Source: Phycisphaerales bacterium (GTDB lineage Bacteria > Planctomycetota > Phycisphaerae > Phycisphaerales > UBA1924). Taken from it: a stretch of 64,000 bases of DNA. Positions within the stretch are counted from its first letter, which is position 1, and every line of letters starts with the position of its first letter. The notes under the pieces are model-generated. The model saw only the letters and a program-made list of their open reading frames with translations. It did not search any database and was not told the origin of the DNA. A program made the position numbers and the translations under genes. The stretch is taken from positions 147,740-211,739 of the forward strand of contig JAWKTB010000001.1 of assembly GCA_041402005.1 (NCBI GenBank), written 5' to 3'. Shown piece by piece: positions 12,871 to 51,977 of this stretch.

Positions 12871-13767
12871 ATGCCCTACCGCATCGATCCATCCAGGCCG
12901 CTCGCCGACGAGGTCCGGCGCATCGCGGGCGAGCAGCTCGGGCGCGCCCTCGACGCCATCGACTCCTCCAGCGAGGACGACGGCGTCGACCCGGTGCACC
13001 GCGTCCGCGTCTGCGCCAAGCGGCTCCGAGCGATGCTCCGCCTCGCCCGCGCGCCGATGGGCGACGCGTTCGGGGCGGAGAACGCCGTCGTACGCGACGT
13101 CGCCCGCTCGCTCGCCGCCGCCCGCGACGCACAGGTGGTCCTCGACGCGTTCGACTCGCTCTTGCCCGCCGACGGGCTCACGCCCGATCTGTGCGTGCTG
13201 CGCGCCACGCTCGACGCGCAGCGCGACCTCGAGGCGGCGGGGATCGAGGACTCGAGGGGCGCGCTCGCCGCGGCGAGACCGCCCCTCGAAGCCGCGCTGG
13301 CGCGTGTCCCCGACCTTCCGGTCGATGACCTGCGGATCGACGACGTCTGGCGCGAGTTCGCTTCGACGTACCGACGCGCCCGCCGGGCGATGCGCGACAC
13401 CCTGGCCGATCCCGCCCCCAGCCACTCGCACGAGTGGCGTTCCTGGGCGAAGCGCCACTGGTACCACGTCCGCCTCATGAGCCAGGCTTCTCCCAAGGCG
13501 ATGCGTGAGCGGGCCAGCCGCCTCGAACGCCTCACGGAGCGTCTGGGACGCCGCCACGACCTCGACATGCTCCGGGCCCGCCTGACGGACCCCGACGGCC
13601 CTCTGCACGCCCTGGAGGGCGCCGAATGGGCTCTGGTCCGCCTCGACAAGGCGGCAGGGCGTCTGGCGATCCGCAGCGCCCGCGAGGGCCTGCGCTTGTT
13701 CTCGGACAAGCCGAGCGAGCTCGCCCGCCCGCTCGCGTCCAGGTGGGCGCGTCGGGCCGCCCGCTAG
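12871..13767 (+). CDS. CHAD domain-containing protein
   Basis: VHRVRVCAKRLRAMLRLAR and HEWRSWAKRHWYHVRLM are the repeated His/Arg-rich helices typical of CHAD. Confidence 0.7.
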   Translation: MPYRIDPSRPLADEVRRIAGEQLGRALDAIDSSSEDDGVDPVHRVRVCAKRLRAMLRLARAPMGDAFGAENAVVRDVARSLAAARDAQVVLDAFDSLLPADGLTPDLCVLRATLDAQRDLEAAGIEDSRGALAAARPPLEAALARVPDLPVDDLRIDDVWREFASTYRRARRAMRDTLADPAPSHSHEWRSWAKRHWYHVRLMSQASPKAMRERASRLERLTERLGRRHDLDMLRARLTDPDGPLHALEGAEWALVRLDKAAGRLAIRSAREGLRLFSDKPSELARPLASRWARRAAR

Positions 13768-16615: not shown

Positions 16616-18877
16616 ATGGCCAAGAAGCCCAACACGCTGCTGAGAGTCGCCGTCCCCCTCGCGATCCTGGGCGGGGGTCTCGCCCTCGCGATCGCGATCG
16701 CGGTCCGCCCGCCGACGACCTCCAAGCCGACGACCCAAGGCGCCCAGTCGAGCGCTCCCTCGACGACCCCGGACGCCTCGACCCCAAGCGAAACGCCCGG
16801 CGTCGACGCGCCAACGCCTGTCGAGCCCCGCGAGACCGCCGACACAACGCCCTCGACGCCCCAGGCCATCGAGGGTCTCCACGCCCGCCCCGTCGAGGGC
16901 CAGGGCGATCTCCGCCCGCTCGGCTCGCTCGAGGAGGTCGACCGCACCGAGCTCTACGTCGTCTTCTCCCCCTTCGGCGCCGGCGTCGAGACCCTCAAGC
17001 TCACCCACGACTACAAGACCGTCGAGAAAAAGGAGCATGTCGAGCTCCAGCGCGCCGTCACCGGGCGCGAAGGCGCCGCCATCCCCTTCGGCCTGGCCAA
17101 GGTCACGATCAACGGGTCCGACGTCCCCCTCGGCGGCGCGGTCTGGCGACAGGACGCTTCCGACCCGGGCCTCTTCACCGCCGAGATCGAGGACGCCGAC
17201 GGGAACCTCGTCGCCCGCATCACCCGCCACTTCGTCCTCGTCCCGGGCTCGTTCAACCTCCGCATCGACCAGCATCTCGACAACCTCACCGACGCCCCGA
17301 TGACGGTCGTCTGGACCCAAACCGGCCCGATCGATCTCGAGAAGCCCCGCTCGACCTACGGCGGGGACAAGCGCCGCATCCGCTACGGCTACTTCTTCCC
17401 CCCCGAGAAGCAGGGCGCCAGCGCCACCGTCACCGCCGACAGCCGCCTCACCTCCCGCATGGGCATCTTCGGCCCACGCGACAAGGCCTCGGGCAAGTAC
17501 GCCCTCGACGACGCCGTCTGGCCCAACCGATGGAGCGAGCAGGACGACCTCCACCTCGTCTGGGTGGGCCTGACCGACCGGTACTTCGCCGTCGTCGCCC
17601 ACACCCCCGTCGACCCGGCCTCCCCGCCCACGACCGCCGACGCCAAGTTGTTCACCAACGCGCAGACCGTCAAGCGCCTCATGCTCAACCGGTCCTCGCA
17701 GATCAAGGACCAGGAGTTCCCGCCGACCATCGTCCTCCAGCTCACCAGCGCCCCCCAGACGGCGCCCGCAGGCGGCGCGTGCGACGCCTCCATCGGCGTC
17801 TACGCCGGTCCCATGGACCCGCGTCAACTCGACGCCGACCCCATCGCCTCGTCCCTGGGCATCAACGACATCGTCGTCTACAACTTCGGCTCGCTCTGCG
17901 CCGCCTGCACCTTCGGCTGGCTCACCCACGTCCTCCTCTTCATCCTCCGCACCCTCCACATGCTCACGCAGGACTGGGCGCTGGCCATCATCCTCCTCGT
18001 CGTCGTCGTCCGCACGTGCCTGCACCCGATCACGCGCTGGAGCCAGATCCGCATGCAGCGCTTCGGCGCCCAGATGCAGTCCATGGGCCCCAAAATCAAG
18101 AAGATCAAGGAGAAGTACGCCGACGACCCCAAACGCGCCCAGCAGGAGCAGGCCAAGCTCTGGAAGGAGGAGGGCATCAGCCCCGCCGGCATGCTCGGGT
18201 GCTTGCCCATGTTCCTCCAGAGCCCCGTCTGGATCGCCCTCTACGCCACGCTCTTCTTCGTCTACGACCTGCGCCACCAGCCCGCGTTCTACGGCGTCTT
18301 CCAGAAGATCTCGGGCGGGCACTGGCACTTCCTCGCCGACCTCGCCAGCCCCGACGCCGCCATCCCCATCCCCGCCTCCTGGCACTTCAGCTTCTGGATC
18401 TGGGGCACGGTCACCTCCATCAACATCCTCCCCTTCATCCTCGCCGGCGTCTTCTTTGTCCACCAGAAGTACCTGACGCCCCCGACCAGCGCCACCATGA
18501 CCCCCGAGCAGGAGCAGCAGCAGAAGATCATGCGGGTCATGATGGTCGTCATGTTCCCGCTGTTCATGTACGCCGCCCCGTCGGGCCTCGCCCTCTACTT
18601 CTGCACCAACTCCTCGCTCGCGATCGTCGAGAACAAGTGGATCCGGGCGCACATGAAGAAGCACGACCTCCTGAACGTTGACAAGATCAAGGCGGACAAG
18701 GCCCAGAAGAAGCAGTCCGGCTTCCTCGCCCGCCTCATGCAGATGGCCGAGCAGCAGCGGGCCGCCCGCACGGGCCGCCCCGCCGACTACGGCACGGGAC
18801 GCGCCGGACGCAACATGTACCGCCGCCAGTCCAAGAAGAACACCCCCACGAGACGCTACAAGAAACGCGACAAGTAA
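16616..18877 (+). CDS. yidC: membrane protein insertase YidC (long form)
   Basis: N-terminal TM, large periplasmic domain, then DWALAIILLVVVVRTCLHPIT, PKIKKIKEKYADDPKRAQQEQAKLWKEEGISP, GCLPMFLQSPVWIALY, and a basic C-terminal tail. Confidence 0.9.
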   Translation: MAKKPNTLLRVAVPLAILGGGLALAIAIAVRPPTTSKPTTQGAQSSAPSTTPDASTPSETPGVDAPTPVEPRETADTTPSTPQAIEGLHARPVEGQGDLRPLGSLEEVDRTELYVVFSPFGAGVETLKLTHDYKTVEKKEHVELQRAVTGREGAAIPFGLAKVTINGSDVPLGGAVWRQDASDPGLFTAEIEDADGNLVARITRHFVLVPGSFNLRIDQHLDNLTDAPMTVVWTQTGPIDLEKPRSTYGGDKRRIRYGYFFPPEKQGASATVTADSRLTSRMGIFGPRDKASGKYALDDAVWPNRWSEQDDLHLVWVGLTDRYFAVVAHTPVDPASPPTTADAKLFTNAQTVKRLMLNRSSQIKDQEFPPTIVLQLTSAPQTAPAGGACDASIGVYAGPMDPRQLDADPIASSLGINDIVVYNFGSLCAACTFGWLTHVLLFILRTLHMLTQDWALAIILLVVVVRTCLHPITRWSQIRMQRFGAQMQSMGPKIKKIKEKYADDPKRAQQEQAKLWKEEGISPAGMLGCLPMFLQSPVWIALYATLFFVYDLRHQPAFYGVFQKISGGHWHFLADLASPDAAIPIPASWHFSFWIWGTVTSINILPFILAGVFFVHQKYLTPPTSATMTPEQEQQQKIMRVMMVVMFPLFMYAAPSGLALYFCTNSSLAIVENKWIRAHMKKHDLLNVDKIKADKAQKKQSGFLARLMQMAEQQRAARTGRPADYGTGRAGRNMYRRQSKKNTPTRRYKKRDK

Positions 18878-18879
18878 CT

Positions 18880-18934
18880 CCCCTCCCCCGCTCCCAGCGG
18901 GGGAGGTGTCGAGCAACGCGAGACGCAGGGGGTC
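18880..18934. repeat. palindromic repeat, family C, copy 1 (intergenic, starts 3 nt after the yidC stop)
   Basis: cccctcccccgctcccagcgggggaggtgtcgagcaacgcgagacgcagggggtc. Stem CCTCCCCCGC/GCGGGGGAGG. A second copy of about 80% identity lies at 23873-23927 inside rimO. Confidence 0.85.
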
Positions 18935-18945
18935 TTCCGTCCTCC

Positions 18946-19017
18946 GCGCCTCCCTCCCTCTCCCCTCCGGGGAGAGGGCCGGGGTGAGGGGCTCCCGTCC
19001 TCCCTCCTGTCTTTCTC
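18946..19017. repeat. palindromic repeat, family B, copy 1
   Basis: gcgcctccctccctctcccctccggggagagggccggggtgaggggctcccgtcctccctcc. Stem CCCTCTCCCC/GGGGAGAGGG. A near-identical copy lies at 22196-22264. Confidence 0.85.
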
Positions 19018-19108
19018 TTCCACCTTCTTCCACCCGAGGCTTCGAGGACTCAGCCTCGGCGTCTCCCCCGACGCGCCACCTTCCAACCGGCTCATCTACC
19101 CTCCTCAC

Positions 19109-20443
19109 GTGTCCGACACGATCGCCGCCATCGCTTCACCCCCCGGGCGCGCCGCCCGCGCGGTTGTTCGTCTCTCGGGCCCGGGCGTCGCCGACGCGCT
19201 CGCCACACTCCTCGACCACGATCCCGCAAGGCGCGGCGCATACACGTCCCGACTCCGGCTCAATGAAGCCCTCTCGCTGCCCGTCCTCGTCCTCCGCTTC
19301 GTCGCGCCGAGTTCGTACACCTCGGAGGACGCCGCCGAGCTGCTTCTCCCAGGCTCGTCGGCGCTGGCGAGGCGTGTACTCGACCGCCTGCTCGCACTCG
19401 ACGGCGTACGCGCCGCCGAGCCGGGCGAGTTCAGCGCCCGCGCCTACCTCAACGGACGTCTCACGATCGAGCAGGGCGAGGGCGTCGCCCGCCTGATCGC
19501 CGCCGAGACCGACGCGCAGCTCGACGCCGCCCGCGACCTGCTCGCGGGGCGCATCGGCGAGACCTACCGCGCCTGGGCGAACGAGCTGACCGATCTGCTC
19601 GCCCTGGTCGAGGCCGGCATCGACTTCACCGACCACGAGGACGTCACGCCGATCGAGCCTCGCGAGCTGCACGCCCGCCTCGGTGCTCTCCGGGTGTCGA
19701 TCGAGAACGCGCTCTCGGGCGCCAATCCCACGGCGTCCGATCCCGAGGGGCCGCTCGTCGTCCTGGTCGGCGCGCCCAACGCCGGCAAGTCCACCCTCTT
19801 CAATGCCCTGCTCGGGCGCCCGCGAGCGGTGGTGAGCGAGCGCGCCGGCACGACCCGCGACGCCCTGATCGAGCCCCTCGACCTCTCGCGCGACGCCCCG
19901 GACGCCGCCATTGTCCGCCTCGCTGATCTGCCCGGCCTCGACCCGCACACGTCGGGCGCGATCGATGGACGGGCCCAGCACGCCGCGCTCGACAACATCG
20001 CGAAGGCCGACGCCTTGATCCAGTGTGACCCCACCGGGCGCTTCGCGCCGATCGCCGAGGCGCGACCCAACACGCCGACCATCCGCGTCCGCACCAAGGC
20101 CGACCTTCCCGCCACGTCGACGACGAGCAACGCGAGCCGTGGGGTCGCAATCGAGGTGTGCGCCCTGGACGGGTACCACCTGAGCGCCCTGCGACGAGCG
20201 ATCGCCGACGTCGCGTTCGCCTCGGGCGCCCCCAACCTCGTCCCGCGTCACCGGGGCGCCCTCGCCCGAGCCTCGCGAGCCCTGGGCGAGGCGATGACGC
20301 TCTCGGGCGACGATTCCCCCGACCCCGCCCCGACCGCCGGCGCCATGCGTGACGCCCTCGACGCCCTGGGCGAGTTGTGCGGACGCATCTCCCCCGACGA
20401 CGTCATCGCCCGCGTCTTCGCGACCTTCTGCGTCGGCAAGTGA
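19109..20443 (+). CDS. mnmE: tRNA modification GTPase MnmE
   Basis: [12 protein letters not shown]1 [23 protein letters not shown]-terminal FCVGK. GTG start. Classical position downstream of yidC. Confidence 0.9.
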
Positions 20444-20444
20444 C

Positions 20445-20500
20445 TCCCCCCCCCTCGGTGGGATGGGCGTCCCGCCCGTCTCCCCTCTTCCTCTGTCTTT
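20445..20500. repeat. repeat family A (core GGCGTCCCGCCCGT), copy 1, immediately after the mnmE stop
   Basis: ctccccccccctcggtgggatgggcgtcccgcccgtctcccctcttcctctgtctttc. Hairpin followed by a C/T-rich tail. Confidence 0.8.
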
Positions 20501-20507
20501 CGGATCT

Positions 20508-20966
20508 TCACGACCCCAGCAGCGCCTCCACGAACGCCCCCAAATACCGCTCGACGAACGCGTCCACCGCCCACCCCGTCGCGACGGCGTCCACCCCCCA
20601 GCAGCACACGACCGGCTCACTCATCTCGGGGTCCGCCTGCACGATCAGCACGTCGTCCACGACGTAGGCGCTGGGCGTCTTGTCCCCCAGGTACGCCGAC
20701 AGCGCGTTCCGCTCCGGGCGCCCGATCGACACCGTCGGCCTCGCCCGCAGCTCGTCGTGGTTGAGGTACCACAGATCCGTGCACACGACCGGGCGGACCA
20801 GCTCGCCCGCGCCGCGCTCGACGAGTCTCGTCCCGATCGTCCGCGCCAGCCGCTCCGCGACCGGTCGGTCGTACACCTCCGCGTCGAGGCTCGAGCCGAC
20901 GACGATCGGCGCCGCCTGCTCGGGCAGGATTCTCGGCTCGGCGATCTCCCTCGCCCCCGCGTCCAT
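20508..20966 (-). CDS. hypothetical protein
   Basis: 152-aa ORF with ordinary amino-acid composition, convergent with mnmE and divergent from clpS. No motif recognised. Confidence 0.4.
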   Translation of the reverse strand: MDAGAREIAEPRILPEQAAPIVVGSSLDAEVYDRPVAERLARTIGTRLVERGAGELVRPVVCTDLWYLNHDELRARPTVSIGRPERNALSAYLGDKTPSAYVVDDVLIVQADPEMSEPVVCCWGVDAVATGWAVDAFVERYLGAFVEALLGS

Positions 20967-21064
20967 GCCGAACCCTCCTCGACCCGGTCATCCCCAAGCG
21001 CGCCGCGTGACGCACGTCCCGCCGCGTCCGGTACACTCTACGTGCTCCAGCCACGGAGGGCGCC

Positions 21065-21385
21065 ATGAGCCAGTCAGCGGACAACCAGGGTCACCAGGCA
21101 CGCGGAAGCGCGGCGGTCAAGGAAAGCCCCGCCCCGCCCCGCCTCGACCGCCTCCCGTCCTATCGGGTCCTGCTCCACAACGACGACGTCAACAACATGC
21201 TCGAGGTCGTGGACGCGATCCTCGAGCTGACCACCCTCAAACGCACCCGGGCCTTCGAGATCATGATGACCGCCCACACCCAGGGCGTCAGCCTGATCCT
21301 CCTGACCCACAAGGAACGCGCCGAGCTCTACCGCGACCAGTTCCACTCAAAGCGCCTGACCGTCACGATCGAGCCCAACGACTAG
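21065..21385 (+). CDS. clpS: ATP-dependent Clp protease adaptor ClpS
   Basis: YRVLLHNDDVNNMLEVVDAILE...AFEIMMTAHTQGVSLILLTHKERAE matches the ClpS core. Confidence 0.85.
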   Translation: MSQSADNQGHQARGSAAVKESPAPPRLDRLPSYRVLLHNDDVNNMLEVVDAILELTTLKRTRAFEIMMTAHTQGVSLILLTHKERAELYRDQFHSKRLTVTIEPND

Positions 21386-21395
21386 GCGACCCCAC

Positions 21396-21450
21396 TCCTC
21401 CCCCTCGGTGGTACAGGCGTCCCGCCTGTCCTATCCCGTCTTCCTTTCCC
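21396..21450. repeat. repeat family A, copy 2, about 10 nt after the clpS stop
   Basis: ctcctccccctcggtggtacaggcgtcccgcctgtcctatcccgtcttcctttccc. Same orientation as copy 1. Confidence 0.8.
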
Positions 21451-21710
21451 GCACGCCCCGGCGCAGGCCGCACATCCCGCGCGCACGCCCCGGCACGGCG
21501 CGTCCGCGTCAAGCGACCACGCGCGCCGCCCGTCCTTTTCCACGTTCTCGCCCCGTCCCATCCGAGGCAATCGCGCCGGGTCTCGCACACGCGCTCAACG
21601 GACACGCCGGTCGCGTTCGAGGCCAGCGCCGGTCAAGGTCGACGCCCCGCCCGTCGATCCTCCTCGCCTGTCGCCGGGGAAGTCTCGGCGCACGCTGAGG
21701 GGACACGCAC

Positions 21711-22193
21711 ATGCCGATTCGTCTGGGCGACCTCCTGGTCCTCAAGGGTGTCATCACCGAGCAAGAGAAGCAGCAGATCCTGGGCGCCCAAGTCGGGCGG
21801 GCACGCCCCTTCGGCGCCCTCGCCGAGGAGATGTTCGGCGTCAGCCCGGAGGACATCGAGGAGGCCTGGGGCCAGCAGTACGCCCACCTCGCCGAGCGCC
21901 TCAACCCCGCCACCGCCACCGCCCATCCCATGACCCGCTCGTTCATCGACCGCCGCCAGGCGTGGCAGTTCAGGGTCGTCCCCATCCGCTTCGACGGCAC
22001 CGAGCTCGTCTGCGTCACCACCCCAGAAGACCTCGCCCGCGCTATGCGCTTCGTCGGCTGGGCGATCGACCGCCCCGTCCGCTTCGCGATCTGCGACGAA
22101 GAGAAGATGCTCGCCGGCCTTGAGCGTCTGTACCCGATGCGCGCCGCCGCCACGGGCGTCACCGAGACCGTCGCCCGCCTCGCCGCGAGCTAG
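21711..22193 (+). CDS. GspE/MshE N-terminal-domain (T2SSE_N)-like protein
   Basis: MPIRLGDLLVLKGVITEQEKQQILGAQ resembles the T2SSE_N opening helix pair (RLGELLV..G.IT..QL..AL). A second half is like ...VVPIRFDGTELVCVTTPEDL. No ATPase domain. Confidence 0.5.
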   Translation: MPIRLGDLLVLKGVITEQEKQQILGAQVGRARPFGALAEEMFGVSPEDIEEAWGQQYAHLAERLNPATATAHPMTRSFIDRRQAWQFRVVPIRFDGTELVCVTTPEDLARAMRFVGWAIDRPVRFAICDEEKMLAGLERLYPMRAAATGVTETVARLAAS

Positions 22194-22195
22194 TC

Positions 22196-22264
22196 GCGCC
22201 CTCCCTCCCTCTCCCCTCTGGGGAGAGGGCCGGGGTGAGGGGCTCTCCGTCTTCCCTTCCCTCC
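22196..22264. repeat. palindromic repeat, family B, copy 2
   Basis: gcgccctccctccctctcccctctggggagagggccggggtgaggggctctccgtcttcccttccctcc. Begins 3 nt after the stop of 21711-22193. Confidence 0.85.
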
Positions 22265-22319
22265 CGCGCCTCCACCGAAGAACCCGGACGCGATCACCGC
22301 GCCCCCTACACTTCCCGCC

Positions 22320-24107
22320 TTGACCGCGACGACCCCCAAACCCTCCGCCGACAACGAGATCCGCACGGTCTCGTTCGTCTCTTTGGGCTGTCCCAAGAAC
22401 CTCGTGGACTCCGAGAAGATGCTCGGCCTGCTCGCCGAGGACGGCATCGCCCCAGTCTCCGCCGACGCCGGCGAGGACAACGAGCACGACGACCTCTCCC
22501 TCTCCGGCTCCGAGCAGGACTCGGGCGCGACGAGCGGTCGCGTCACCCCCGCCGACGCCGTCGTCATCAACACCTGCGGCTTCCTCGAAGCCTCCAAACA
22601 AGAATCCCTGGGCGTCGTCCGCGAGGCCATCGCCCTCAAGGATGCGGGCCAGATCAAGCGTGTCGTCGTCGCCGGGTGCCTCGTGCAGCGCCACCGCGCC
22701 AAGATGCTCGACTGGGCCCCCGGCATCGACGCGATGGTCGGCGTCTTCGACCGAGACAAGATCCTCGAAGCAGTCCGTGGCGAACGCGCCGAGCGCGAAA
22801 CCCTCGAAGACGCGGCGCAGAAAGGCCCCAACTACTGGATCAGCGCCAACGCCCTCGTCAAAGCCAAAGCCCACGGTTTGCAAACCGTGGGCCTCTCCGT
22901 CAACGGCAAAGACGGCAAGGGCGTCGGCTACTTCGAGTCCGACTCGGCCCGCCTCCGCCTCACCCCGCGCCACTACGCCTACCTGCGCATCAGCGAGGGC
23001 TGCAACCAGAACTGCGCCTTCTGCACCATCCCCTCCATCCGCGGCAAGATGCGCTCCAAGCCCATCGACCGCATCGAAGCCGAAGCACGCGAACTCCTCC
23101 GCGACGGCGCCTTCGAACTCCTCCTCATCGGCCAGGACACCACCAGCTTCGGCGACGACATCGGCATCGGCCTCCCCCCCCTCGTGGCACGGGCGTCCCG
23201 CCCGTGTTCTTCTTCTTCCTCTTCTATCCCGGGCGCTTCTCACGGGCGGGACGCCCGTGCCACGGAAGACCTCTTCTCCGCCGGCCTCCCCAAGCTCCTC
23301 AAAGCTCTCTCCGACGCCTCGCGCCAGGAAGCCAAGCACGCCTGGCTCCGCCTCATGTACGCCTACCCCTCCAACTTCACCGACCCCATCATCGACGCCT
23401 TCGCGCAGCTGGTCGCGGAAGGCAATCTCCTCCCCTACATCGACATCCCCCTCCAGCACGCCTCCGACAACGTGCTCACCGCCATGCGCCGCAACGTCAG
23501 CGCGAGCCAGCAGCTCGAGCTCATGCACAAGCTCCGCGACCGCATCCCCGGCATGGCCATCCGCACCACCTTCGTCACCGGCTTCCCGGGCGAGACCGAG
23601 GACGACCACGACGAGCTTCTCGAGTTCATCGAGGAGGTCGGCTTCGACGCCGTCGGGTGCTTCCGGTACTCGCGCGAGGAGGGCACGGTCGCCGGTCGCA
23701 TGGAGCTCGACCCGAAGCTCGCGGTCCCCGAAGAGATCAAGCAGCGCCGCCACGACGAGATCATGGAGCTCCAGCAGCAGATCGCCCATGAGCAGGCGGC
23801 CTACCTCGCCGAGCAGTTCGACCCCGCCAACCCAACTGACTCCGGCTGCCACTTCGACGTCCTCATCGACCGCCCCTCCCCCGCTCTCAGCGGGGGAGGT
23901 CTCTCGCGAAGTGAGACGGAGGGGGTCTATCAAGGCCGCACCTACTTCCAAGCCCCCCAGATCGACGCTGTCACCTATGTCCACGCGCGCGAACGCCTCT
24001 CCCCCGGCGAACTCGTCCGGTGCGCCATTATCGCCTCCGACGGCTACGACCTCATCGCCCGCCCCGTCACCGAGCTCGAACGCAAGGTCTCCCTCCCCCT
24101 CGCATAG
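22320..24107 (+). CDS. rimO: ribosomal protein S12 methylthiotransferase RimO, with in-frame repeat insertions
   Basis: VSFVSLGCPKNLVDSEKM, VVINTCGF, TPRHYAYLRISEGCNQNCAFCTIPSIRG (radical-SAM CxxxCxxC), LPYIDIPLQHAS, TTFVTGFPGETE, and a C-terminal TRAM domain. It is 595 aa, about 150 aa longer than E. coli RimO as I recall it. Confidence 0.9.
   Translation: MTATTPKPSADNEIRTVSFVSLGCPKNLVDSEKMLGLLAEDGIAPVSADAGEDNEHDDLSLSGSEQDSGATSGRVTPADAVVINTCGFLEASKQESLGVVREAIALKDAGQIKRVVVAGCLVQRHRAKMLDWAPGIDAMVGVFDRDKILEAVRGERAERETLEDAAQKGPNYWISANALVKAKAHGLQTVGLSVNGKDGKGVGYFESDSARLRLTPRHYAYLRISEGCNQNCAFCTIPSIRGKMRSKPIDRIEAEARELLRDGAFELLLIGQDTTSFGDDIGIGLPPLVARASRPCSSSSSSIPGASHGRDARATEDLFSAGLPKLLKALSDASRQEAKHAWLRLMYAYPSNFTDPIIDAFAQLVAEGNLLPYIDIPLQHASDNVLTAMRRNVSASQQLELMHKLRDRIPGMAIRTTFVTGFPGETEDDHDELLEFIEEVGFDAVGCFRYSREEGTVAGRMELDPKLAVPEEIKQRRHDEIMELQQQIAHEQAAYLAEQFDPANPTDSGCHFDVLIDRPSPALSGGGLSRSETEGVYQGRTYFQAPQIDAVTYVHARERLSPGELVRCAIIASDGYDLIARPVTELERKVSLPLA
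22869..22892. repeat. perfect 24-nt palindrome inside rimO
   Basis: gcccacggtttgcaaaccgtgggc is its own reverse complement. It is translated as AHGLQTVG. Confidence 0.9.
23171..23270. repeat. repeat family A, two inverted arms, inside rimO
   Basis: Arm gtggcacgggcgtcccgcccgtg (23184-23206) and its exact reverse complement cacgggcgggacgcccgtgccac (23241-23263), separated by a C/T-rich spacer. Translated as LVARASRPCSSSSSSIPGASHGRDARAT. Confidence 0.9.
23873..23927. repeat. palindromic repeat, family C, copy 2, inside the rimO TRAM-domain region
   Basis: cccctcccccgctctcagcgggggaggtctctcgcgaagtgagacggagggggtc, translated as PSPALSGGGLSRSETEGV. Its twin lies at 18880-18934. Confidence 0.85.
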
Positions 24108-24131
24108 TCTCGGATCCGTCGGGATCGCGTG

Positions 24132-24238
24132 CCCCACGACTCGAAGACTCGTCGTGGGCGTGAATAGATGTTCTCAACCCGGTTGTGGGATTCGGTTGCA
24201 TGTCAGGTACGCCCACGACGAGTCTTCGAGTCGTGGGG
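24132..24238. repeat. REPIN: two identical 30-nt REP sequences in inverted orientation
   Basis: ccccacgactcgaagactcgtcgtgggcgt (24132-24161) and its exact reverse complement (24209-24238), with a 47-nt spacer. It lies between the rimO stop and the RAYT stop. Confidence 0.9.
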
Positions 24239-24250
24239 TTTCCCTCCTCA

Positions 24251-24784
24251 TCAATCGCCCAACCCCGGAATCGGATCCCGGAACGTCCACACGCTTGCGT
24301 GCTCCAGACGCCCATGCTCGACGATGTAGTCGAATACCCGGGCGTGGTGCTCCCGTGACCGGATCGTCACGACGTGACACCGCCTCGACCAGAGTCCACC
24401 CGGGAAGCGGTCACGCAGCGCGTGCGACGACGCCCGTTTGAGGCGTCCGACCTCGCGCCCTACGTCGCGACCCTCGAAGTTCGCGAGGAGGTGAGCATGG
24501 GTCGCGCTGACGCTCAGCACGAGCGTCTCCAACTCGATTGCTTCGATCTTCTCGAGCGATTCCCGAAGCGCGCCCCATCGATCCCCAATGCCCAGCGCGA
24601 CGCGAGGACGAGTCATCCGCGCCCTGGCATGCCTTTGCAGCCCCGCGTGCTCCCCCTTGGAAGGCGGACGCCTGTAGTCCCCCGACGAGTGGACCCTGTG
24701 ATCGTGGTCCCGGAACCCCCGTGGATCACCCGGGAGCCACGACCCATACGTGGACCAGATCACGTGCTTCCAGTCCCGCGCCAT
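24251..24784 (-). CDS. REP-associated tyrosine transposase (RAYT, IS200/IS605 Y1 HUH family)-like protein
   Basis: MARDWKHVIWSTYGSWLPGDPRGF (typical N-terminus of this family), HUH motif in LSVSATHAHLLANF, candidate catalytic Tyr in ARVFDYIVEHG. Flanked on both sides by the same REP. The track ORF (to 24943) is over-extended across a REP; I chose ATG at 24784. Confidence 0.7.
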   Translation of the reverse strand: MARDWKHVIWSTYGSWLPGDPRGFRDHDHRVHSSGDYRRPPSKGEHAGLQRHARARMTRPRVALGIGDRWGALRESLEKIEAIELETLVLSVSATHAHLLANFEGRDVGREVGRLKRASSHALRDRFPGGLWSRRCHVVTIRSREHHARVFDYIVEHGRLEHASVWTFRDPIPGLGD

Positions 24785-24806
24785 CGCGCGAGAGTACCCG
24801 AACGGA

Positions 24807-24836
24807 CCCCACGACTCGAAGACTCGTCGTGGGCGT
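24807..24836. repeat. REP copy upstream of the RAYT gene
   Basis: ccccacgactcgaagactcgtcgtgggcgt, identical to 24132-24161. Confidence 0.9.
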
Positions 24837-24948
24837 ACGCAGAGACCCGCCATGCCCCAGGCGTCACGGCGAGCCCCCGAGTTGTGGGGTCTCCCCCGTG
24901 CCCCGGGCTCTTTGGAGCCCCCGACCTCACCCGCCCGATCCAAGAGGC

Positions 24949-26301
24949 ATGCTCCGCCCCGGGCAATCTGTGATGCTGTGCGCGCTCGCCCTGCTCACGC
25001 TCGGCGTGGTCATGGTCAACTCCGCCGCCATGCGGGTGGACCCGATCGACGTCGCCGCCCCGGGCGTGCACGCCTCGACCGACCCCTCGGTCGTGACGCG
25101 CGAGGGCATCACCGCCCGCTCGATCCTGCTCTCGCGCTCCACCCTGTACATGGCGGTCGCCGTCGGCGCGATGGGCCTGGCCTCGCGCCTCCCGGTCCGC
25201 CGCCTGGCCAAGCGTCTGGAGACGACTCCCTGGCCCAAGCCCTTGGGCGAGGTCGGCTGGCTCGCCGCCGGGGCCTTGAGCATCATCGCTGTGCTCGGTC
25301 TCGTCTACGTCCCGGGCATCCAGCGCGTCGTCAACGGCTCGGCTCGCTGGATCACACTCCCGATCCCCGGCCTCGAGTCCTTCCAGCCCTCCGAGGTCGC
25401 CAAGTGGGCGATCGTCCCCTTGCTCGCCTGGTACGCCGCCCGGCGCGCCACCTCGGGAACCGTCAAGGGCGGCATGCGCGAGTTCTGGAAGGGCCTGGCC
25501 CCCGCGATCGTCTGCCTCGCCGCCGTCGCGGGCATGATCGTCCTCGAAGACCTTGGCACCGGCGCGCTCATCGCGATGGTGGGGGCGATCGTGCTGCTCG
25601 CCGCGGGCGCACGCCTGTGGCACTTCCTGATGTTCGTCCCGCCCGCCGCCGCCGCCGTCACCCTCGCGATCCTCCAGAGCCCGTACAGAGTCCAGCGGAT
25701 CATCACCTTCATCGACCCCTTCGCCGACCCCCAGGGCGCGGGCTACCACATGATCCAGTCGATGTCCACGGTCGCCGGGGGTGGCATCTTCGGGCGCGGC
25801 CTCGGGCACGGGCTCCAGAAGTTCGGGTATCTCCCGGAGGACACGACCGACTTCCTCTTCGCCGTCATCTGCGAGGAGCTTGGCCTCGCGGGCGCGATGC
25901 TCGTGATCTGCCTGTACGCCGCCATCGTCTTCAGCGCCGTCAAGGTCGTCCGGCGCGCGGACCTGCTCACGCTCAAGCTCGTCGCGATCGGCGTCGCCGC
26001 CACCGTGACGATCCAGGCCCTCATCAACATGGCGGTCGTCACGGGGCTGGGCCCGACCAAGGGCATCGCCCTGCCGCTGCTCTCGTCGGGCGGGACGGGC
26101 TGGATCCTGACCGCGACGATGCTCGGCGTGCTCGCCGCCATCGACCGCAGCGCGCCCGAGACCGAGGACGAACCGGAGCTGGTCGTGCGAGCCCGGATGC
26201 CCCGTGAGCCCTCGCGTCCCGCGACGATCGCGCCATCAGGCCCCGTGCTCGAGCCCGTCGTCGTCAAGCCGCGCGTTCGTCTGGCACACCCCAAGCCATG
26301 A
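24949..26301 (+). CDS. ftsW: SEDS-family peptidoglycan glycosyltransferase FtsW/RodA
   Basis: FQPSEVAKWAIV, PEDTTDFLFAVICEELGL, GPTKGIALPLLSSGGTG. The track ORF (24538) is over-extended; I chose ATG 24949. Confidence 0.85.
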   Translation: MLRPGQSVMLCALALLTLGVVMVNSAAMRVDPIDVAAPGVHASTDPSVVTREGITARSILLSRSTLYMAVAVGAMGLASRLPVRRLAKRLETTPWPKPLGEVGWLAAGALSIIAVLGLVYVPGIQRVVNGSARWITLPIPGLESFQPSEVAKWAIVPLLAWYAARRATSGTVKGGMREFWKGLAPAIVCLAAVAGMIVLEDLGTGALIAMVGAIVLLAAGARLWHFLMFVPPAAAAVTLAILQSPYRVQRIITFIDPFADPQGAGYHMIQSMSTVAGGGIFGRGLGHGLQKFGYLPEDTTDFLFAVICEELGLAGAMLVICLYAAIVFSAVKVVRRADLLTLKLVAIGVAATVTIQALINMAVVTGLGPTKGIALPLLSSGGTGWILTATMLGVLAAIDRSAPETEDEPELVVRARMPREPSRPATIAPSGPVLEPVVVKPRVRLAHPKP

Positions 26302-47284: not shown

Positions 47285-47320
47285 ACGACGGGCGAGCGGG
47301 CCCGAGATGCAAGACCCCCC

Positions 47321-47350
47321 ACGCCGACGACGAGTCCTCGAGTCGTGGGG
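47321..47350. repeat. REP copy (same family as the RAYT-flanking REPs), 2 mismatches, inverted orientation
   Basis: acgccgacgacgagtcctcgagtcgtgggg versus acgcccacgacgagtcttcgagtcgtgggg at 24209-24238. Confidence 0.8.
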
Positions 47351-47366
47351 TCCAAGGAGCTCCCAG

Positions 47367-50858: not shown

Positions 50859-51881
50859 TTGCTGAGAACCCCCAACCCAACCCGCCCCAAGTCGATCGAC
50901 GAGCTGCTCGACAGCCGTCTGATCTCGCAGATCTCGCGCCTGGACCTGACCAGCCGCAAGATCTTCGCGGGCAAGCTCAAGGGCGAGCGCCGCTCGAAGA
51001 AGCGCGGCGAGAGTGTCGAGTTCGCCGACCACCGCCCCTACGCGATCGGCGACGACCTCCGACACATCGACTGGAACATCTACGCCCGCCTCGACCACCT
51101 CTTCATGAAGCTCTTCCTCGAGGAGGAGGATCTTTCCCTGCACATCGTGATCGACTGCTCCGAGTCCGCCGACTGTGGCGACCCGGGCAAGTTCCTCTTC
51201 ATGCAGCGCCTCGCGATGGCCCTGGGCTACATCGGCCTCGTCAACCTCAACCGCGTCGCCATTACGGCCCTCGCCGGCGAGCTCGCAACCGATCAGCCAC
51301 GCGAGAAACCCGTCGGGACGGGCTCGGTCTTCGCCCCCTCTCCCCTTCCCTCTGGTGGTACGGGCGTCCCGCCCGTCTCCTCCCCCTCCACGCTCCACAC
51401 CATCCGCGACCTCCGCGGACGCCGACGCACCCAGGACCTCGCCCGCTTCATCTGCTCACTCCGCCCCTCTGGCTCGACGGACTTCACCGAGGCCGCCAAG
51501 CGCATCGCCCTGACCCGCCGGGGCAAGGGCGTCATGCTCGTCCTCTCCGACTTCTTCATGAAGGAGGGGTACGAGACCGGCCTGCGCCTGCTCGTCGGTC
51601 GCGGGTACGACCTGTTCGCGATGCAGATCCTCGCCCCCCAGGAGGTCGAGCCCGACATCGCGGGGGACCTACGCCTCAGGGACGTCGAGGACTTCGACCA
51701 GGCCGAGGTGACGATCACGGCGCCCCTGCTCAAGCGCTACAAGCAGACGCTCGCCGCCTACTGCGGCGAGCTGCGTGACTTCTGCGCCCGGCGCGAGATC
51801 ACGCACCTCTCCGTCCGCACCGACACGCCCATCGAGACGCTGATCATGGACTACCTGCGTCAGAGGGGGCTGCTGCGATGA
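50859..51881 (+). CDS. DUF58-family protein (MoxR partner) with in-frame repeat insertion
   Basis: GESVEFADHRPYAIGDDLRHIDWNIYARLDHLFMKLFLEEEDL is the DUF58 signature. TTG start. Confidence 0.8.
   Translation: MLRTPNPTRPKSIDELLDSRLISQISRLDLTSRKIFAGKLKGERRSKKRGESVEFADHRPYAIGDDLRHIDWNIYARLDHLFMKLFLEEEDLSLHIVIDCSESADCGDPGKFLFMQRLAMALGYIGLVNLNRVAITALAGELATDQPREKPVGTGSVFAPSPLPSGGTGVPPVSSPSTLHTIRDLRGRRRTQDLARFICSLRPSGSTDFTEAAKRIALTRRGKGVMLVLSDFFMKEGYETGLRLLVGRGYDLFAMQILAPQEVEPDIAGDLRLRDVEDFDQAEVTITAPLLKRYKQTLAAYCGELRDFCARREITHLSVRTDTPIETLIMDYLRQRGLLR
51334..51390. repeat. repeat family A, copy 4, in frame inside the DUF58 gene
   Basis: ccccctctccccttccctctggtggtacgggcgtcccgcccgtctcctccccctcca, translated as PSPLPSGGTGVPPVSSPST. 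Confidence 0.85.
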
Positions 51882-51887
51882 GACATT

Positions 51888-51977
51888 TCACCACGGAGAA
51901 CACGGAGGGCCACGGAGGGGGACAGTGGTCCTGTATCAAGATCTCCTCTCCGTGTTCCTCCGTGTTCCCCGTGGTGA
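51888..51977. repeat. ~90-nt imperfect palindrome built from CACGGAG(A/G) units (family E)
   Basis: Left arm tcaccacggagaacacggagggccacggaggggga, right arm tctcctctccgtgttcctccgtgttccccgtggtga (reverse complement matches except a few positions). Intergenic, between the DUF58 and BatA-like genes. Confidence 0.85.

What the first reader, a model, noticed from the sequence alone, without database searches (positions are those of the whole stretch)
22320..24107. rimO carries three palindromic repeat elements inserted in frame (RPE-like behaviour)
All RimO hallmark blocks are present and in one 595-codon frame (N-terminal Cys triad, CxxxCxxC radical-SAM box, TRAM). Three extra segments coincide exactly with DNA palindromes: 22869-22892, 23171-23270 and 23873-23927. 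Two of these have near-identical copies in intergenic DNA elsewhere in this window, so they are dispersed repeats, not ancestral coding sequence. They add roughly 8, 30 and 18 residues without stop codons. The well-known precedent is Rickettsia palindromic elements inserting in frame into protein genes. I am not aware of this being described for this kind of high-GC genome. A fourth, acidic low-complexity insert (DAGEDNEHDDLSLSGSEQDSGATSG, ~22455-22540) has no obvious repeat origin.
Basis: partly seen in the sequence, partly recalled or inferred. Interest (0 to 1): 0.75.

Follow-up and report, generated by a model that had tools for sequence, protein, structure and literature searches.

The report
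Repeat hairpins translated inside rimO
Two short, GC-rich hairpin repeats that are also scattered between genes have landed inside an intact, conserved ribosome-modifying gene (rimO) and are read through as extra protein loops. This is a real but already-known kind of event, now seen in a new bacterial order. The third "insert" is not an insert at all.

Summary
The 595-codon ORF 22320-24107(+) is a bona fide RimO: it scores above the TIGR01125 cut-off, has all Cys motifs, and shows dN/dS 0.11-0.30.

Two of the three claimed inserts are dispersed REP-type elements read in frame.
- **P2 (23172-23273):** a REPIN-like doublet with 24-nt perfectly complementary arms and a 34-nt CT-rich spacer. Single copies lie after two stop codons and inside a DUF58 gene, where they are read in another frame.
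- **P3 (23873-23928):** 86% identical to an intergenic copy. It does not simply add residues; it replaces a 20-aa segment conserved in 57 of 86 orthologs.
- **Both sites** are length-hypervariable loops across 86 Phycisphaerales orthologs, get low-confidence AF2 predictions, and carry other repeat families in relatives.

**P1 (22869-22892)** is a real, perfect 24-nt palindrome built from rare codons. No ortholog has a length change there, and no other copy was found. It is not an insertion.

The acidic segment is conserved across all 30 aligned homologs.

A RAYT-like HUH transposase gene, flanked by a fourth repeat family, lies just downstream of rimO.

In-frame intragenic REPs, including dimers that encode 20-30 aa, were already described in 2013 in high-GC bacteria and in the PVC member Opitutus terrae. 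This is therefore a new member of a known kind.

The parts
22320..24107 (+). rimO CDS (595 codons, TTG start), intact and under purifying selection
   Evidence: ORF. Pfam UPF0004, Radical_SAM and TRAM_2. TIGR01125 393 bits versus cut-off 357. dN/dS 0.11-0.30 versus five relatives. The identical protein is annotated RimO in an NCBI Phycisphaerales MAG.
22455..22540 (+). Acidic segment (DAGEDNEHDDLSLSGSEQDSGATSG): conserved across the aligned homologs and not repeat-derived
   Evidence: Present in all 30 aligned homologs, with invariant D58, S60, G63, S64, E65, Q66 and D67. Extra relative to T. maritima RimO 4JC0. pLDDT below 50.
22869..22892 (+). P1: perfect 24-nt palindrome, codon-aligned (AHGLQTVG). 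It is not an insertion and not a dispersed repeat
   Evidence: 12 of 12 pairs. No length variation in 86 orthologs. Unique in the window. Rare codons GGT, TTG and CAA; P(observed codons given the peptide) about 1e-5. The tract is shared with non-sister L003. The metagenome scan gave only unrelated hairpins.
23172..23273 (+). P2: loop residues 285-318, occupied by a B-family REPIN-like doublet. Layout: C-rich lead, arm 23183-23206, CT-rich spacer 23207-23240, inverted arm 23241-23264
   Evidence: Arms 24 nt and 100% complementary. MFE -59.4 kcal/mol. The loop is 0-16 aa in 76 of 86 orthologs and 7 aa in L001/L006. The same element sits at the same site in L003, L004 and L005, with a variant in L002. 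pLDDT below 50 for residues 282-315.
23873..23928 (+). P3: C-family element inside loop residues 518-537, replacing a conserved 20-aa TRAM-domain segment
   Evidence: 48 of 56 nt identical to intergenic 18880-18935. 57 of 86 orthologs carry xxTGxxxExTxGVSxGGxLY here and the sister lineages have 9 aa. C-family elements occupy the same site in L003 and L005. pLDDT below 50 for residues 523-532.
20444..20483 (+). B-family single copy, directly after a TGA stop codon
21398..21450 (+). B-family variant copy (stem ACAGGCG/CGCCTGT), directly after the clpS stop codon
   Evidence: The same variant occurs in L002 rimO and downstream of rimO in L007.
51340..51380 (+). B-family single copy inside the DUF58 CDS 50859-51881, read in a different frame (PSGGTGVPPVSS)
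   Evidence: The DUF58 loop is hypervariable and holds B-, C- and D-type peptides in relatives. DNA confirmed in L107 and L108, with a short loop in L109.
18880..18935 (+). C-family intergenic copy, directly after a TAA stop codon
18949..19005 (+). D-family copy (GGGGAGAGGGCCGGGGTGAGGGG type), adjacent to the C copy
   Evidence: The same C-then-D adjacency occurs in frame in the DUF58 gene of L107.
22200..22257 (+). D-family copy in the 126-nt spacer just upstream of the rimO start
   Evidence: 55 of 58 nt identical to 18949-19005.
24132..24239 (.). E-family inverted doublet (30-nt arms 24132-24161 and 24209-24238) between the rimO stop and the RAYT-like gene
   Evidence: MFE -79.2 kcal/mol.
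24251..24784 (-). RAYT-like HUH/Y1 transposase gene (177 aa), flanked by inverted E repeats (24212-24238 and 24807-24833)
   Evidence: Pfam Y1_Tnp E 2e-4 and NCBIfam REP_Tyr_transpos E 2.4e-5, both below the curated cut-offs. The family alignment has invariant H96 and H98 and near-invariant Y153. The profile's best PDB hit is 4ER8 TnpA-REP, E 7.9e-5. An ortholog with the same flanking repeats lies downstream of rimO in L003.
24804..24838 (-). E-family repeat upstream of the RAYT-like gene
47320..47353 (+). E-family copy (2 mismatches) between two genes

Best explanation
rimO here is a working gene whose two most tolerant surface loops have been colonised by short, GC-rich, hairpin-forming REP/REPIN-type repeats from the genome's own dispersed families.

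**Proposed mechanism**
1. The repeats spread through the genome, presumably through single-strand cleavage and joining by HUH tyrosine transposases of the RAYT type. One such gene, with its own flanking repeats, lies next to rimO. This step is inferred.
2. Most insertions into genes are lost. Survivors add a multiple of three bases, carry no stop codon in the frame used (easy for these stop-poor GC-rich elements), and land in loops that tolerate extra Pro/Ser/Gly/Arg-rich peptide. This step is shown.
3. Once fixed, the CT-rich spacer changes length in steps of three, while the arms stay nearly unchanged.

**What each feature is**
- P2 is such a doublet. It adds about 27-31 residues to a radical-SAM-domain loop.
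- P3 is such an element. It stands where a conserved 20-residue TRAM-domain segment used to be.
- P1 is a different thing. It is a palindrome made in place within existing codons, most likely by template switching or short-tract conversion on an already half-palindromic sequence. It is not an inserted repeat.
For: **rimO is intact and constrained.** See; all Cys motifs are invariant.

**P2 and P3 are dispersed.** Copies occur after three stop codons and inside DUF58.

**P2 and P3 are inserted or replaced relative to orthologs.**
- P2 site: 0-16 aa in 76 of 86 orthologs and 34 aa here. The element-free relative L001/L006 has LTPEAAR.
- P3 site: a conserved 20-aa segment in 57 of 86 orthologs, 9 aa in the sister lineages, and an unrelated 20 aa here.

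**Frames are open.** The B doublet has no stops in all three forward frames. C and D have none in two of three. The same families are read in different frames in different genes and lineages:
- B: VARASRP versus GTGVPPV.
- C: PSPALSGGG versus SPAQAGEV.
- D: GEGRGEG versus GERAGVRG.

**The inserts sit in loops.** pLDDT is below 50 at residues 282-315 and 523-532, between conserved elements. Both segments are extra relative to T. maritima RimO 4JC0.

**The sites show turnover.** A second protein, DUF58, has one loop holding B, C, D and other repeat-type peptides in many lineages, and a short loop in others.

**Spacer indels are multiples of three.**

**A RAYT-like gene flanked by E repeats is present.**

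**Precedent exists in the literature.** PMC3733652 reports intragenic REPs and REP dimers. PMC10969869 covers RPEs.

**P1 is a DNA-level feature without an indel.**
Against: - No transposition step was observed, and no target-site duplication or defined target was recognised.
- The neighbouring RAYT-like gene is flanked by family E, not by B or C. No enzyme can be assigned to the elements inside rimO.
- The RAYT-like protein scores below the curated Pfam and NCBIfam cut-offs.
- Genome-wide copy numbers are unknown. Only 64 kb of this genome was available, and the genome is not among the GTDB representatives scanned.
- The P2 arms differ at only 0-1 of 46 nt from L004 and L003, although third-codon-position identity is 0.71-0.73. 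A passive, neutral, ancient insertion does not explain this. It needs homogenisation, selection on the hairpin, or repeated insertion at the same site.
- The distribution of P3-site states does not fit one gain on the NJ tree.
- There is no proteomic evidence that the junction peptides are made. All sequences come from MAGs.
- The template-switch origin of P1 is an inference only.
Confidence: 0.72

Rival explanations
1. The intragenic hairpins are exapted, functional nucleic-acid elements rather than passengers. They could act as mRNA structures that pause ribosomes or RNA polymerase or protect the transcript. They could also be DNA sites still bound by a RAYT-type protein. Selection would then act on the arms.
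For: - The P2 arms differ at only 0-1 of 46 nt across lineages whose third-position identity is about 0.71-0.73. The binomial probabilities are 1e-7 and 8e-6 against the third-position rate, and 1e-4 and 2e-3 against overall identity.
- L002 carries a variant in which both halves of each stem changed together (ACGGGCG/CGCCCGT to CAGGCG/CGCCTG).
- P1 shows a compensatory pair change between the window and L003 (CAC..GTG versus GAT..GTC). It uses rare synonymous codons that preserve pairing.
- The hairpins are very stable: -59 and -32 kcal/mol.
Against: - The closest relatives L001 and L006 do without P2 and P3. L002 does without P3. In both cases rimO is still constrained.
- Different families occupy the same loops in different lineages.
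- The L005 copy shows uncompensated decay in its arms.
- Arm conservation is equally expected from gene conversion with other genomic copies, or from recent re-insertion.
- No Rfam family matches.
Confidence: 0.15
2. The extra segments are ordinary lineage-specific loop expansions that arose in place, by slippage or duplication in low-complexity sequence. They only look like repeats because GC-rich, Pro/Gly/Ser-rich loops converge on similar sequences.
For: - The loops are hypervariable in length in many lineages, including some inserts with no hairpin signal (L027, L048, L062 and L063 at the P2 site).
- The spacer of P2 is a (TCT)n-like microsatellite that varies between lineages.
- This is the best reading for P1 and for the acidic segment.
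Against: - P3 is 86% identical over 56 nt to a copy that follows a stop codon 5 kb away.
- The P2 core recurs with its C-rich and CT-rich flanks at three other places in 64 kb, against 0 matches in shuffles.
- The same C-then-D tandem occurs both between genes in the window and in frame in the DUF58 gene of another genome.
- The peptides in relatives match translations of the window's intergenic elements in alternative frames.
Confidence: 0.05
3. The locus is an assembly artefact or a decaying pseudogene, and the real rimO function is supplied elsewhere.
For: - All the data are MAG contigs.
- Repeats can confuse assemblers, and one ortholog (L032) has a run of N exactly at the P3 site.
- The rest of the genome could not be searched for a second rimO.
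Against: - The ORF is uninterrupted with every catalytic motif, and dN/dS is 0.11-0.30.
- The same elements sit at the same sites in independent MAGs from other samples (L003, L004, L005).
- The locus is syntenic: trmE-clpS-mshEN-like-rimO-ftsW-murG.
- The elements (about 56-100 nt) are shorter than typical reads.
- There is no second RimO-like sequence in the 64-kb window.
Confidence: 0.04

Closest known systems
Intragenic REPs (GTAG-/CGTC-tagged palindromic repeats; Di Nocera et al. 2013, PMC3733652)
   Same: - Short GC-rich stem-loop repeats that normally sit downstream of genes.
- Singles and inverted dimers found inside ORFs of known proteins.
- Dimers encoding 20-30 aa, and some genes hit twice.
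- Described in high-GC bacteria and in the PVC superphylum (Opitutus terrae), where one family carries a GTGG tag instead of GTAG.
- All four B copies here begin with GTGG.
   Different: - The sequences here were not compared with the 28 published families.
- rimO and DUF58 are not among the published targets.
- The published Planctomycetes (R. baltica) cases are only in short hypothetical ORFs.
- Several points seen here did not come up in the parts of that paper searched: several families share the same orthologous loop across species, one element replaces a conserved segment, and the arms are more conserved than silent sites.
Rickettsia palindromic elements (RPE; Ogata et al. 2000, as reviewed in PMC10969869)
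   Same: Palindromic dispersed repeats inserted in frame into unrelated housekeeping genes, read through as extra peptide, at positions compatible with the fold.
   Different: - RPEs are about 100-150 bp and come from small, reduced genomes (AT-rich, from my own knowledge), with a conserved encoded peptide.
- The elements here are 40-100 nt and about 70% GC.
- They belong to REP/REPIN-like families and are read in several frames.
- They occur in free-living Phycisphaerales next to a RAYT-like gene.
- No sequence relationship was tested or is expected.
REPIN-RAYT systems (Bertels & Rainey 2011, PMC3116915; Nunvar et al. 2010)
   Same: - Two inverted REPs separated by a spacer and folding into one long hairpin (P2; also the E doublet).
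- A single-copy HUH tyrosine transposase gene flanked by its REPs (24251-24784 with the E repeats).
- The RAYT-like gene and its flanking repeats lie at the same place, downstream of rimO, in a relative (L003).
   Different: - Classical REPINs are extragenic.
- The RAYT-like gene here is tied to family E, not to the families inside rimO.
- The protein is below the curated family cut-offs.
- Mobilisation has not been shown.
Intragenic MITEs with open frames (ERIC, BOX, Anabaena MITEs; reviewed in PMC10969869 and by Delihas 2007)
   Same: Small non-autonomous repeats that can fuse in frame with host ORFs.
   Different: MITEs have terminal inverted repeats and target-site duplications and derive from IS elements. 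None of these features was found here.

Membership tests
RimO (30S ribosomal protein S12 methylthiotransferase) | Score above the curated equivalog cut-off; UPF0004, radical-SAM and TRAM architecture; N-terminal Cys triad and CxxxCxxC | tested here: met
   TIGR01125 393.1 bits versus 356.95. Three Pfam domains. C86, C120, C228, C232 and C235 are invariant and C24 is near-invariant. Best PDB hit is 4JC0 RimO, E 6e-68.
REP (repetitive extragenic palindrome)-type repeat | Short (20-40 nt core) GC-rich imperfect palindrome present in multiple dispersed copies, typically just downstream of genes | tested here: met
   In 64 kb: B at 4 loci, C at 2, D at 2, E at 4. Shuffles gave 0 matches. B at 20444 and 21398 and C at 18880 directly follow stop codons.
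REP (repetitive extragenic palindrome)-type repeat | High copy number genome-wide (tens to hundreds) | not testable with these tools
   Only the 64-kb window of this genome is available, and the genome is not in the scanned GTDB representative set.
REPIN | Two REPs in inverted orientation separated by a short spacer, able to fold as one long hairpin | tested here: met
   P2: 24-nt arms, 100% complementary, 34-nt spacer, MFE -59.4 kcal/mol. Each arm contains its own small hairpin, ACGGGCG-TCC-CGCCCGT.
REPIN | Cognate RAYT gene flanked by the same REP family | tested here: not met
   The only RAYT-like gene in the window is flanked by family E, not by B or C. A cognate gene elsewhere in the genome cannot be excluded.
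RAYT (REP-associated tyrosine transposase) | HUH motif and catalytic Tyr; similarity to TnpA-REP; gene flanked by inverted REPs; single copy | tested here: inconclusive
   - H96 and H98 are invariant and Y153 near-invariant in 40 homologs.
- The profile's best PDB hit is 4ER8 TnpA-REP, E 7.9e-5.
- The gene is flanked by inverted E repeats and is the only copy in the window.
- However, NCBIfam NF047646 scores 24 bits versus a cut-off of 80, and Pfam Y1_Tnp 21.9 versus 23.
Rickettsia palindromic elements (RPE) | Membership in the RPE sequence families of Rickettsia genomes | not tested
   No RPE sequences were compared. The host, base composition and element length all differ. The resemblance is in behaviour only.
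GTAG/CGTC-tagged REP superfamilies | Conserved GTAG (or variant such as GTGG) or CGTC tetranucleotide at one end of the stem-loop | tested here: inconclusive
   - All four B copies start with GTGG (GTGGCAC, GTGGGAT, GTGGTAC, GTGGTAC), a variant tag reported for O. terrae GTAG-20.
- The E copies carry GTAC or CAC.
- No comparison with the published consensus sequences was made.
MITE | Terminal inverted repeats plus target-site duplication | tested here: not met
   Comparison with the element-free site in L001 showed no direct duplication at the P2 or P3 boundaries.

The most novel reading that the evidence does not exclude
In Phycisphaerales, REP/REPIN repeats may be a routine source of protein-loop variation. 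On this reading, several families repeatedly enter, replace and leave the same tolerant loops of conserved proteins such as rimO and DUF58. The translated copies would stay part of the genome's live repeat population. They would be kept nearly identical to the family master sequence by conversion or re-insertion over divergences at which silent sites are about 30% different. They would therefore serve at once as protein sequence and as transposase substrate.
Probability: 0.25. Interest if true: 0.6.

Novelty: new member of a known kind. Interest (0 to 1): 0.4.

Why it matters
**For annotation.** RimO and DUF58 proteins of this order differ in length by tens of residues because of repeat-derived peptides, not because of new domains. 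Segments such as VARASRP...HGRDARAT, SPAQAGEV...RRRG and GEGRGEG should be recognised as translated repeats.

**For evolution.** The case extends in-frame REP colonisation from Rickettsia, Proteobacteria and Opitutus to Phycisphaerales. It also offers a tractable example in which one housekeeping enzyme has two loops with presence, absence and replacement states across close relatives. This allows three tests:
- how much insertion a radical-SAM enzyme tolerates;
- whether translated repeats are homogenised with extragenic ones;
- whether a conserved TRAM-domain hairpin is dispensable.

**On its own** it does not change what is known about how such repeats move.

Tried and rejected
- **Rfam.** A scan of 18000-26000 at E up to 1 found only a chance snoRNA match at 0.37. 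None of the elements is a known RNA family.
- **P1 as a dispersed element.**
  - It has no second copy in the window, even allowing 3 mismatches.
  - Among the 85 loci held at that point, only the orthologous site of L003 matches.
  - A scan of JGI metagenomes for the 18-nt core gave 21 hits in unrelated organisms (GC 0.26-0.68). Most look like terminator hairpins, and none is in a rimO or Phycisphaerales repeat context.
  - The idea was rejected.
- **P1 as a by-product of the peptide.** The site is somewhat self-complementary in all orthologs (mean 5.2 of 12 pairs versus a null of 3.7). However, the observed rare codons have P about 1e-5 given the peptide, so protein constraint alone does not explain it.
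- **PDB search with the single RAYT-like sequence.** This was uninformative (E 0.32). A profile of 40 homologs was needed.
- **Source genome.** The genome-contig scan did not return it (best hit 84% identity), so no genome-wide census or search for a second rimO was possible.
- **One gain per site.** Mapping each site as a single gain on the NJ tree failed for P3: the states conflict with the tree. Recurrent gain and loss, or recombination, must be invoked.
- **Hairpin count.** The window has 7 perfect hairpins with stems of at least 10 bp, against a mean of 2.5 (maximum 9) in Markov simulations. This is not significant by itself. The evidence rests on specific repeated sequences, not on hairpin counts.
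Full report
**1. The gene**

The window has 70% GC. ORF 22320..24107(+) is 595 codons with a TTG start.
- It has the Pfam domains UPF0004, Radical_SAM and TRAM_2.
- It passes the curated RimO equivalog model TIGR01125 (393 bits against a cut-off of 357).
- Its best solved relative is T. maritima RimO 4JC0 (E 6e-68).
- An identical protein is annotated RimO in an NCBI Phycisphaerales MAG, on a 601-kb contig.
- In an alignment of 30 homologs, C86, C120, C228, C232 and C235 are invariant.
- Against five relatives whose DNA I fetched (L001-L005), dN/dS is 0.11-0.30.
- The neighbourhood is syntenic: trmE, clpS, an MshEN-like gene, rimO, ftsW, murG.
- No second RimO-like sequence lies in the window.

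The gene is intact and constrained.

**2. The palindromes exist**

- P1 (22869-22892) is a perfect 24-nt palindrome.
- P2 has 24-nt arms at 23183-23206 and 23241-23264, 100% complementary, 34 nt apart.
- P3 has an 11-bp stem at 23875-23899.
- The P2 segment folds at -59.4 kcal/mol and P3 at -32.4 kcal/mol.

**3. Which of them are dispersed repeats**

A self-comparison of the window and pattern searches define four families.

| Family | Copies in the window | Notes |
|---|---|---|
| B (core GTGG-ACGGGCG-TCC-CGCCCGT, with a C-rich lead and a CT-rich tail) | 20444-20483; 21398-21450; the rimO doublet; 51340-51380 | The first two directly follow stop codons. 21398-21450 is a variant with stem ACAGGCG/CGCCTGT. 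|
| C | 18880-18935; rimO 23873-23928 | The first directly follows a TAA stop. The two copies share 48 of 56 nt. |
| D (the GGGGAGAGGGCCGGGGTGAGGGG type) | 18949-19005; 22200-22257 | The second lies just upstream of rimO. |
| E | 24132-24162; 24207-24239; 24804-24838; 47320-47353 | Flanks the RAYT-like gene (section 9). |

P1 has no other copy.

The copy at 51340-51380 is not intergenic. It lies inside a DUF58 gene (50859-51881) and is read in a different frame from the rimO copy, as PSGGTGVPPVSS rather than VARASRPC.

**4. Are they insertions? Comparison with orthologs**

I aligned the protein with 29 database homologs. I then aligned it with rimO genes from 80 GTDB species representatives plus the five close relatives, giving 86 sequences in a codon-aware alignment.

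*P2 site (residues 285-318)*
- The loop is 0-16 aa in 76 of 86 sequences.
- It is 31-43 aa only in the window and in L002-L005.
- The closest element-free relative (L001/L006, 91% identity on conserved columns) has GIG-LTPEAAR-FSAGLP. The window has GIG-LPPLVARASRPCSSSSSSIPGASHGRDARATEDL-FSAGLP.
- L003, L004 and L005 carry the same doublet at the same place, with spacers that differ by whole codons.
- L002 carries the variant subfamily, which is also present in the window at 21398.

*P3 site (residues 518-537)*
- 57 of 86 sequences carry a conserved 20-aa segment, xxTGxxxExTxGVSxGGxLY.
- The sister lineages L001, L002 and L006 have only 9 aa.
- The window again has 20 aa, but of unrelated sequence that is the C element.
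- P3 is therefore repeat-derived, but it stands in place of an ancestral conserved segment. The net change is 0 against the order-wide state and +11 aa against the sisters.
- C-family elements also occupy this site in L003 (read in another frame after the first loop) and in L005. A D-type peptide does so in P0040.
- On an NJ tree, ((L003,L004),((L001,L006),(win,L002))) with L005 and L007 outside, these states cannot be explained by one gain.

*P1 site*
- All 86 sequences have exactly 8 codons here, matching xxGxxTVG. P1 is not an insertion.

*Acidic segment*
- It is present in all 30 aligned homologs, with seven invariant residues. It is not repeat-derived.

**5. Position in the protein**

All four extra segments are absent from T. 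maritima RimO. In an AlphaFold2 model (mean pLDDT 65), pLDDT is below 50 at residues 47-72, 155-217, 282-315 and 523-532. These are exactly the acidic segment, the region holding P1, P2 and P3. Each lies between confidently predicted strands and helices. Low confidence does not prove that a segment is a surface loop, but it fits with the hypervariable alignment.

**6. Why read-through works**

- The B doublet has no stop codon in any of its three forward frames.
- C and D have none in two of three forward frames.
- The same families are translated in different frames in different genes and lineages:
  - B as VARASRP or GTGVPPV;
  - C as PSPALSGGG or SPAQAGEV;
  - D as GEGRGEG or GERAGVRG.
- The only strong filters are therefore a length divisible by three and a tolerant site.

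**7. The phenomenon is general in this order**

The DUF58 loop between NRVAVTALG and IRDLRGRRR is hypervariable across 24 homologs. It carries B-, C- and D-type peptides, and others such as EPRPSGSGP, in many of them.

At the DNA level:
- the DUF58 gene of L107 holds a C element followed by a D element, in frame;
- this is the same C-then-D adjacency found between genes at window 18880-19005;
- L108 holds a D-like element plus a B variant;
- L109 has a short loop with no element.

Different families in the same loop of close relatives argue for repeated entry and turnover at tolerant sites.

**8. An observation a purely passive model does not explain**

The two P2 arms (46 nt) differ at 0 positions from L004 and at 1 from L003. 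Third-codon-position identity to those genomes is only 0.71-0.73. The binomial probabilities are 1e-7 and 8e-6. The L005 copy has 5 differences that are not compensated. L002 carries a variant in which both halves of the stems changed together.

Three explanations are possible, and I cannot separate them with 64 kb of the genome:
- gene conversion with other genomic copies;
- re-insertion at the same site;
- selection on the hairpin.

**9. A candidate enzyme next door**

ORF 24251-24784(-) (177 aa) is flanked by inverted E repeats at 24212-24238 and 24807-24833.
- Alone, it scores below the curated cut-offs: Pfam Y1_Tnp 21.9 bits against 23, and NCBIfam REP_Tyr_transpos 24 against 80.
- A search of 1.84 billion representative proteins found 570 relatives.
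- In an alignment of 40 of them, H96 and H98 are invariant and Y153 is near-invariant.
- The profile's best solved match is E. coli TnpA-REP, 4ER8 (E 7.9e-5), followed by IS608-type TnpA.
- An ortholog with identical E repeats lies downstream of rimO in L003.
- It is the only such gene in the window.

It is RAYT-like, but it is linked to family E, not to the families inside rimO.

**10. P1**

- The window has 12 of 12 Watson-Crick pairs and L003 has 10 plus one G-T. The site averages 5.2, against 3.7 for all 46,930 other codon-aligned 24-mers in the 86 genes. Only the window itself reaches 12.
- The codons used are rare in this genome: GGT 5.5%, TTG 2.8% and CAA 11%. P(observed codons given the peptide) is about 1e-5.
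- Over residues 171-191 the window is 93-96% identical to the non-sister L003, but only 69-80% identical to its sister L002.
- The H/V codons of the window (CAC..GTG) and the D/V codons of L003 (GAT..GTC) differ in a pairing-preserving way.
- A metagenome scan for the 18-nt core found 21 unrelated hairpins and no repeat family.

My reading, by inference, is that a half-palindromic coding tract was made perfect in place. The likely causes are template switching or a short conversion tract, possibly exchanged between lineages. It remains partly unexplained.

**11. What is known**

- Rickettsia palindromic elements are the classic case of in-frame palindromic repeats (PMC10969869).
- Di Nocera et al. 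2013 (PMC3733652) already reported REPs inside ORFs of known proteins in several species.
  - The highest number was in Opitutus terrae, a high-GC member of the same PVC superphylum.
  - More than half of the inserts were dimers or groups encoding 20-30 aa.
  - Some genes were hit twice, and one family carried a GTGG tag.
- Their Planctomycetes examples (R. baltica) are only in short hypothetical ORFs, and rimO is not among their targets.

The present case is therefore a new member of a known kind. The extra points are:
- a new order (Phycisphaerales);
- rimO and DUF58 as hosts;
- several families sharing orthologous loops;
- replacement of a conserved segment;
- unusually conserved arms.

**12. 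Verdict**

- Observation: partly confirmed.
- Interpretation: right for P2 and P3, wrong for P1.
- Novelty claim: overstated.
- Interest: moderate.

Noticed in passing
window 24251-24784 (-), with repeats at 24212-24238 and 24807-24833; L003 4900-5433 (-): A RAYT-like HUH tyrosine transposase gene, flanked by inverted E-family repeats, sits between rimO and ftsW here and in relative L003. L001 and L002 have a 415-aa minus-strand gene at that spot, and L004 has neither.
   Followed up: yes
window 50859-51881 (+), repeat at 51340-51380: A DUF58 gene carries a single B-family repeat in frame (PSGGTGVPPVSS). Its loop is a hot spot for B-, C- and D-type repeat peptides across Phycisphaerales homologs.
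   Followed up: yes
window 18880-19005; L107 about 930-1050: The C and D elements lie side by side (13 nt apart) after a stop codon in the window. The same C-then-D tandem lies in frame inside the DUF58 gene of another genome. C and D may form one composite unit of about 125 nt.
   Followed up: partly
window 22455-22540 (RimO residues 46-74): The acidic motif DDLSxSGSEQD, between the first and second cluster cysteines, is invariant in all 30 Phycisphaerales homologs and absent from T. maritima RimO. It looks like a functional lineage-specific addition of unknown role.
   Followed up: partly
window 22830-22925 (RimO residues 171-201): This tract contains P1 and two rare AAA Lys codons. It is 93-96% identical to the non-sister L003 but only 69-80% identical to the sister L002. 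That suggests a short recombination or conversion tract between lineages.
   Followed up: partly
window 51888-51977: A 90-nt near-perfect palindrome built from CACGGAG-type units lies between the DUF58 gene and the next gene. It may be another repeat family or a terminator.
   Followed up: no
window 13252-13289: A 38-nt imperfect palindrome (TCGAGGGGCG...CGCCCCTCGA) lies inside ORF 12871-13767(+), encoding ...EDSRGALAAARPPLE.... It may be another intragenic hairpin.
   Followed up: no
window 7022-7602 versus 8193-8788: Several matching blocks of 23-73 nt lie at the same spacing. This suggests two tandem paralogous genes.
   Followed up: no
L032 (UBA7812), P3 site of rimO: This public MAG has a run of N exactly at the P3 loop. 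The site may be hard to assemble, or may hold a long repeat, in that genome.
   Followed up: no
P0009: A RimO 72% identical to the window's is labelled 'Leptolyngbya sp. PLA3 / Cyanobacteria bacterium' in NCBI. It groups with the Phycisphaerales proteins, so it is probably a mis-binned or mislabelled MAG.
   Followed up: no
L027 P3 site; L043 and L075 P3 site: Other rimO orthologs carry different repeat-like peptides at the same loop: a fourfold PPRSGGVPKGEG tandem in L027, and GQWTVDSGQWTS in L043 and L075.
   Followed up: no
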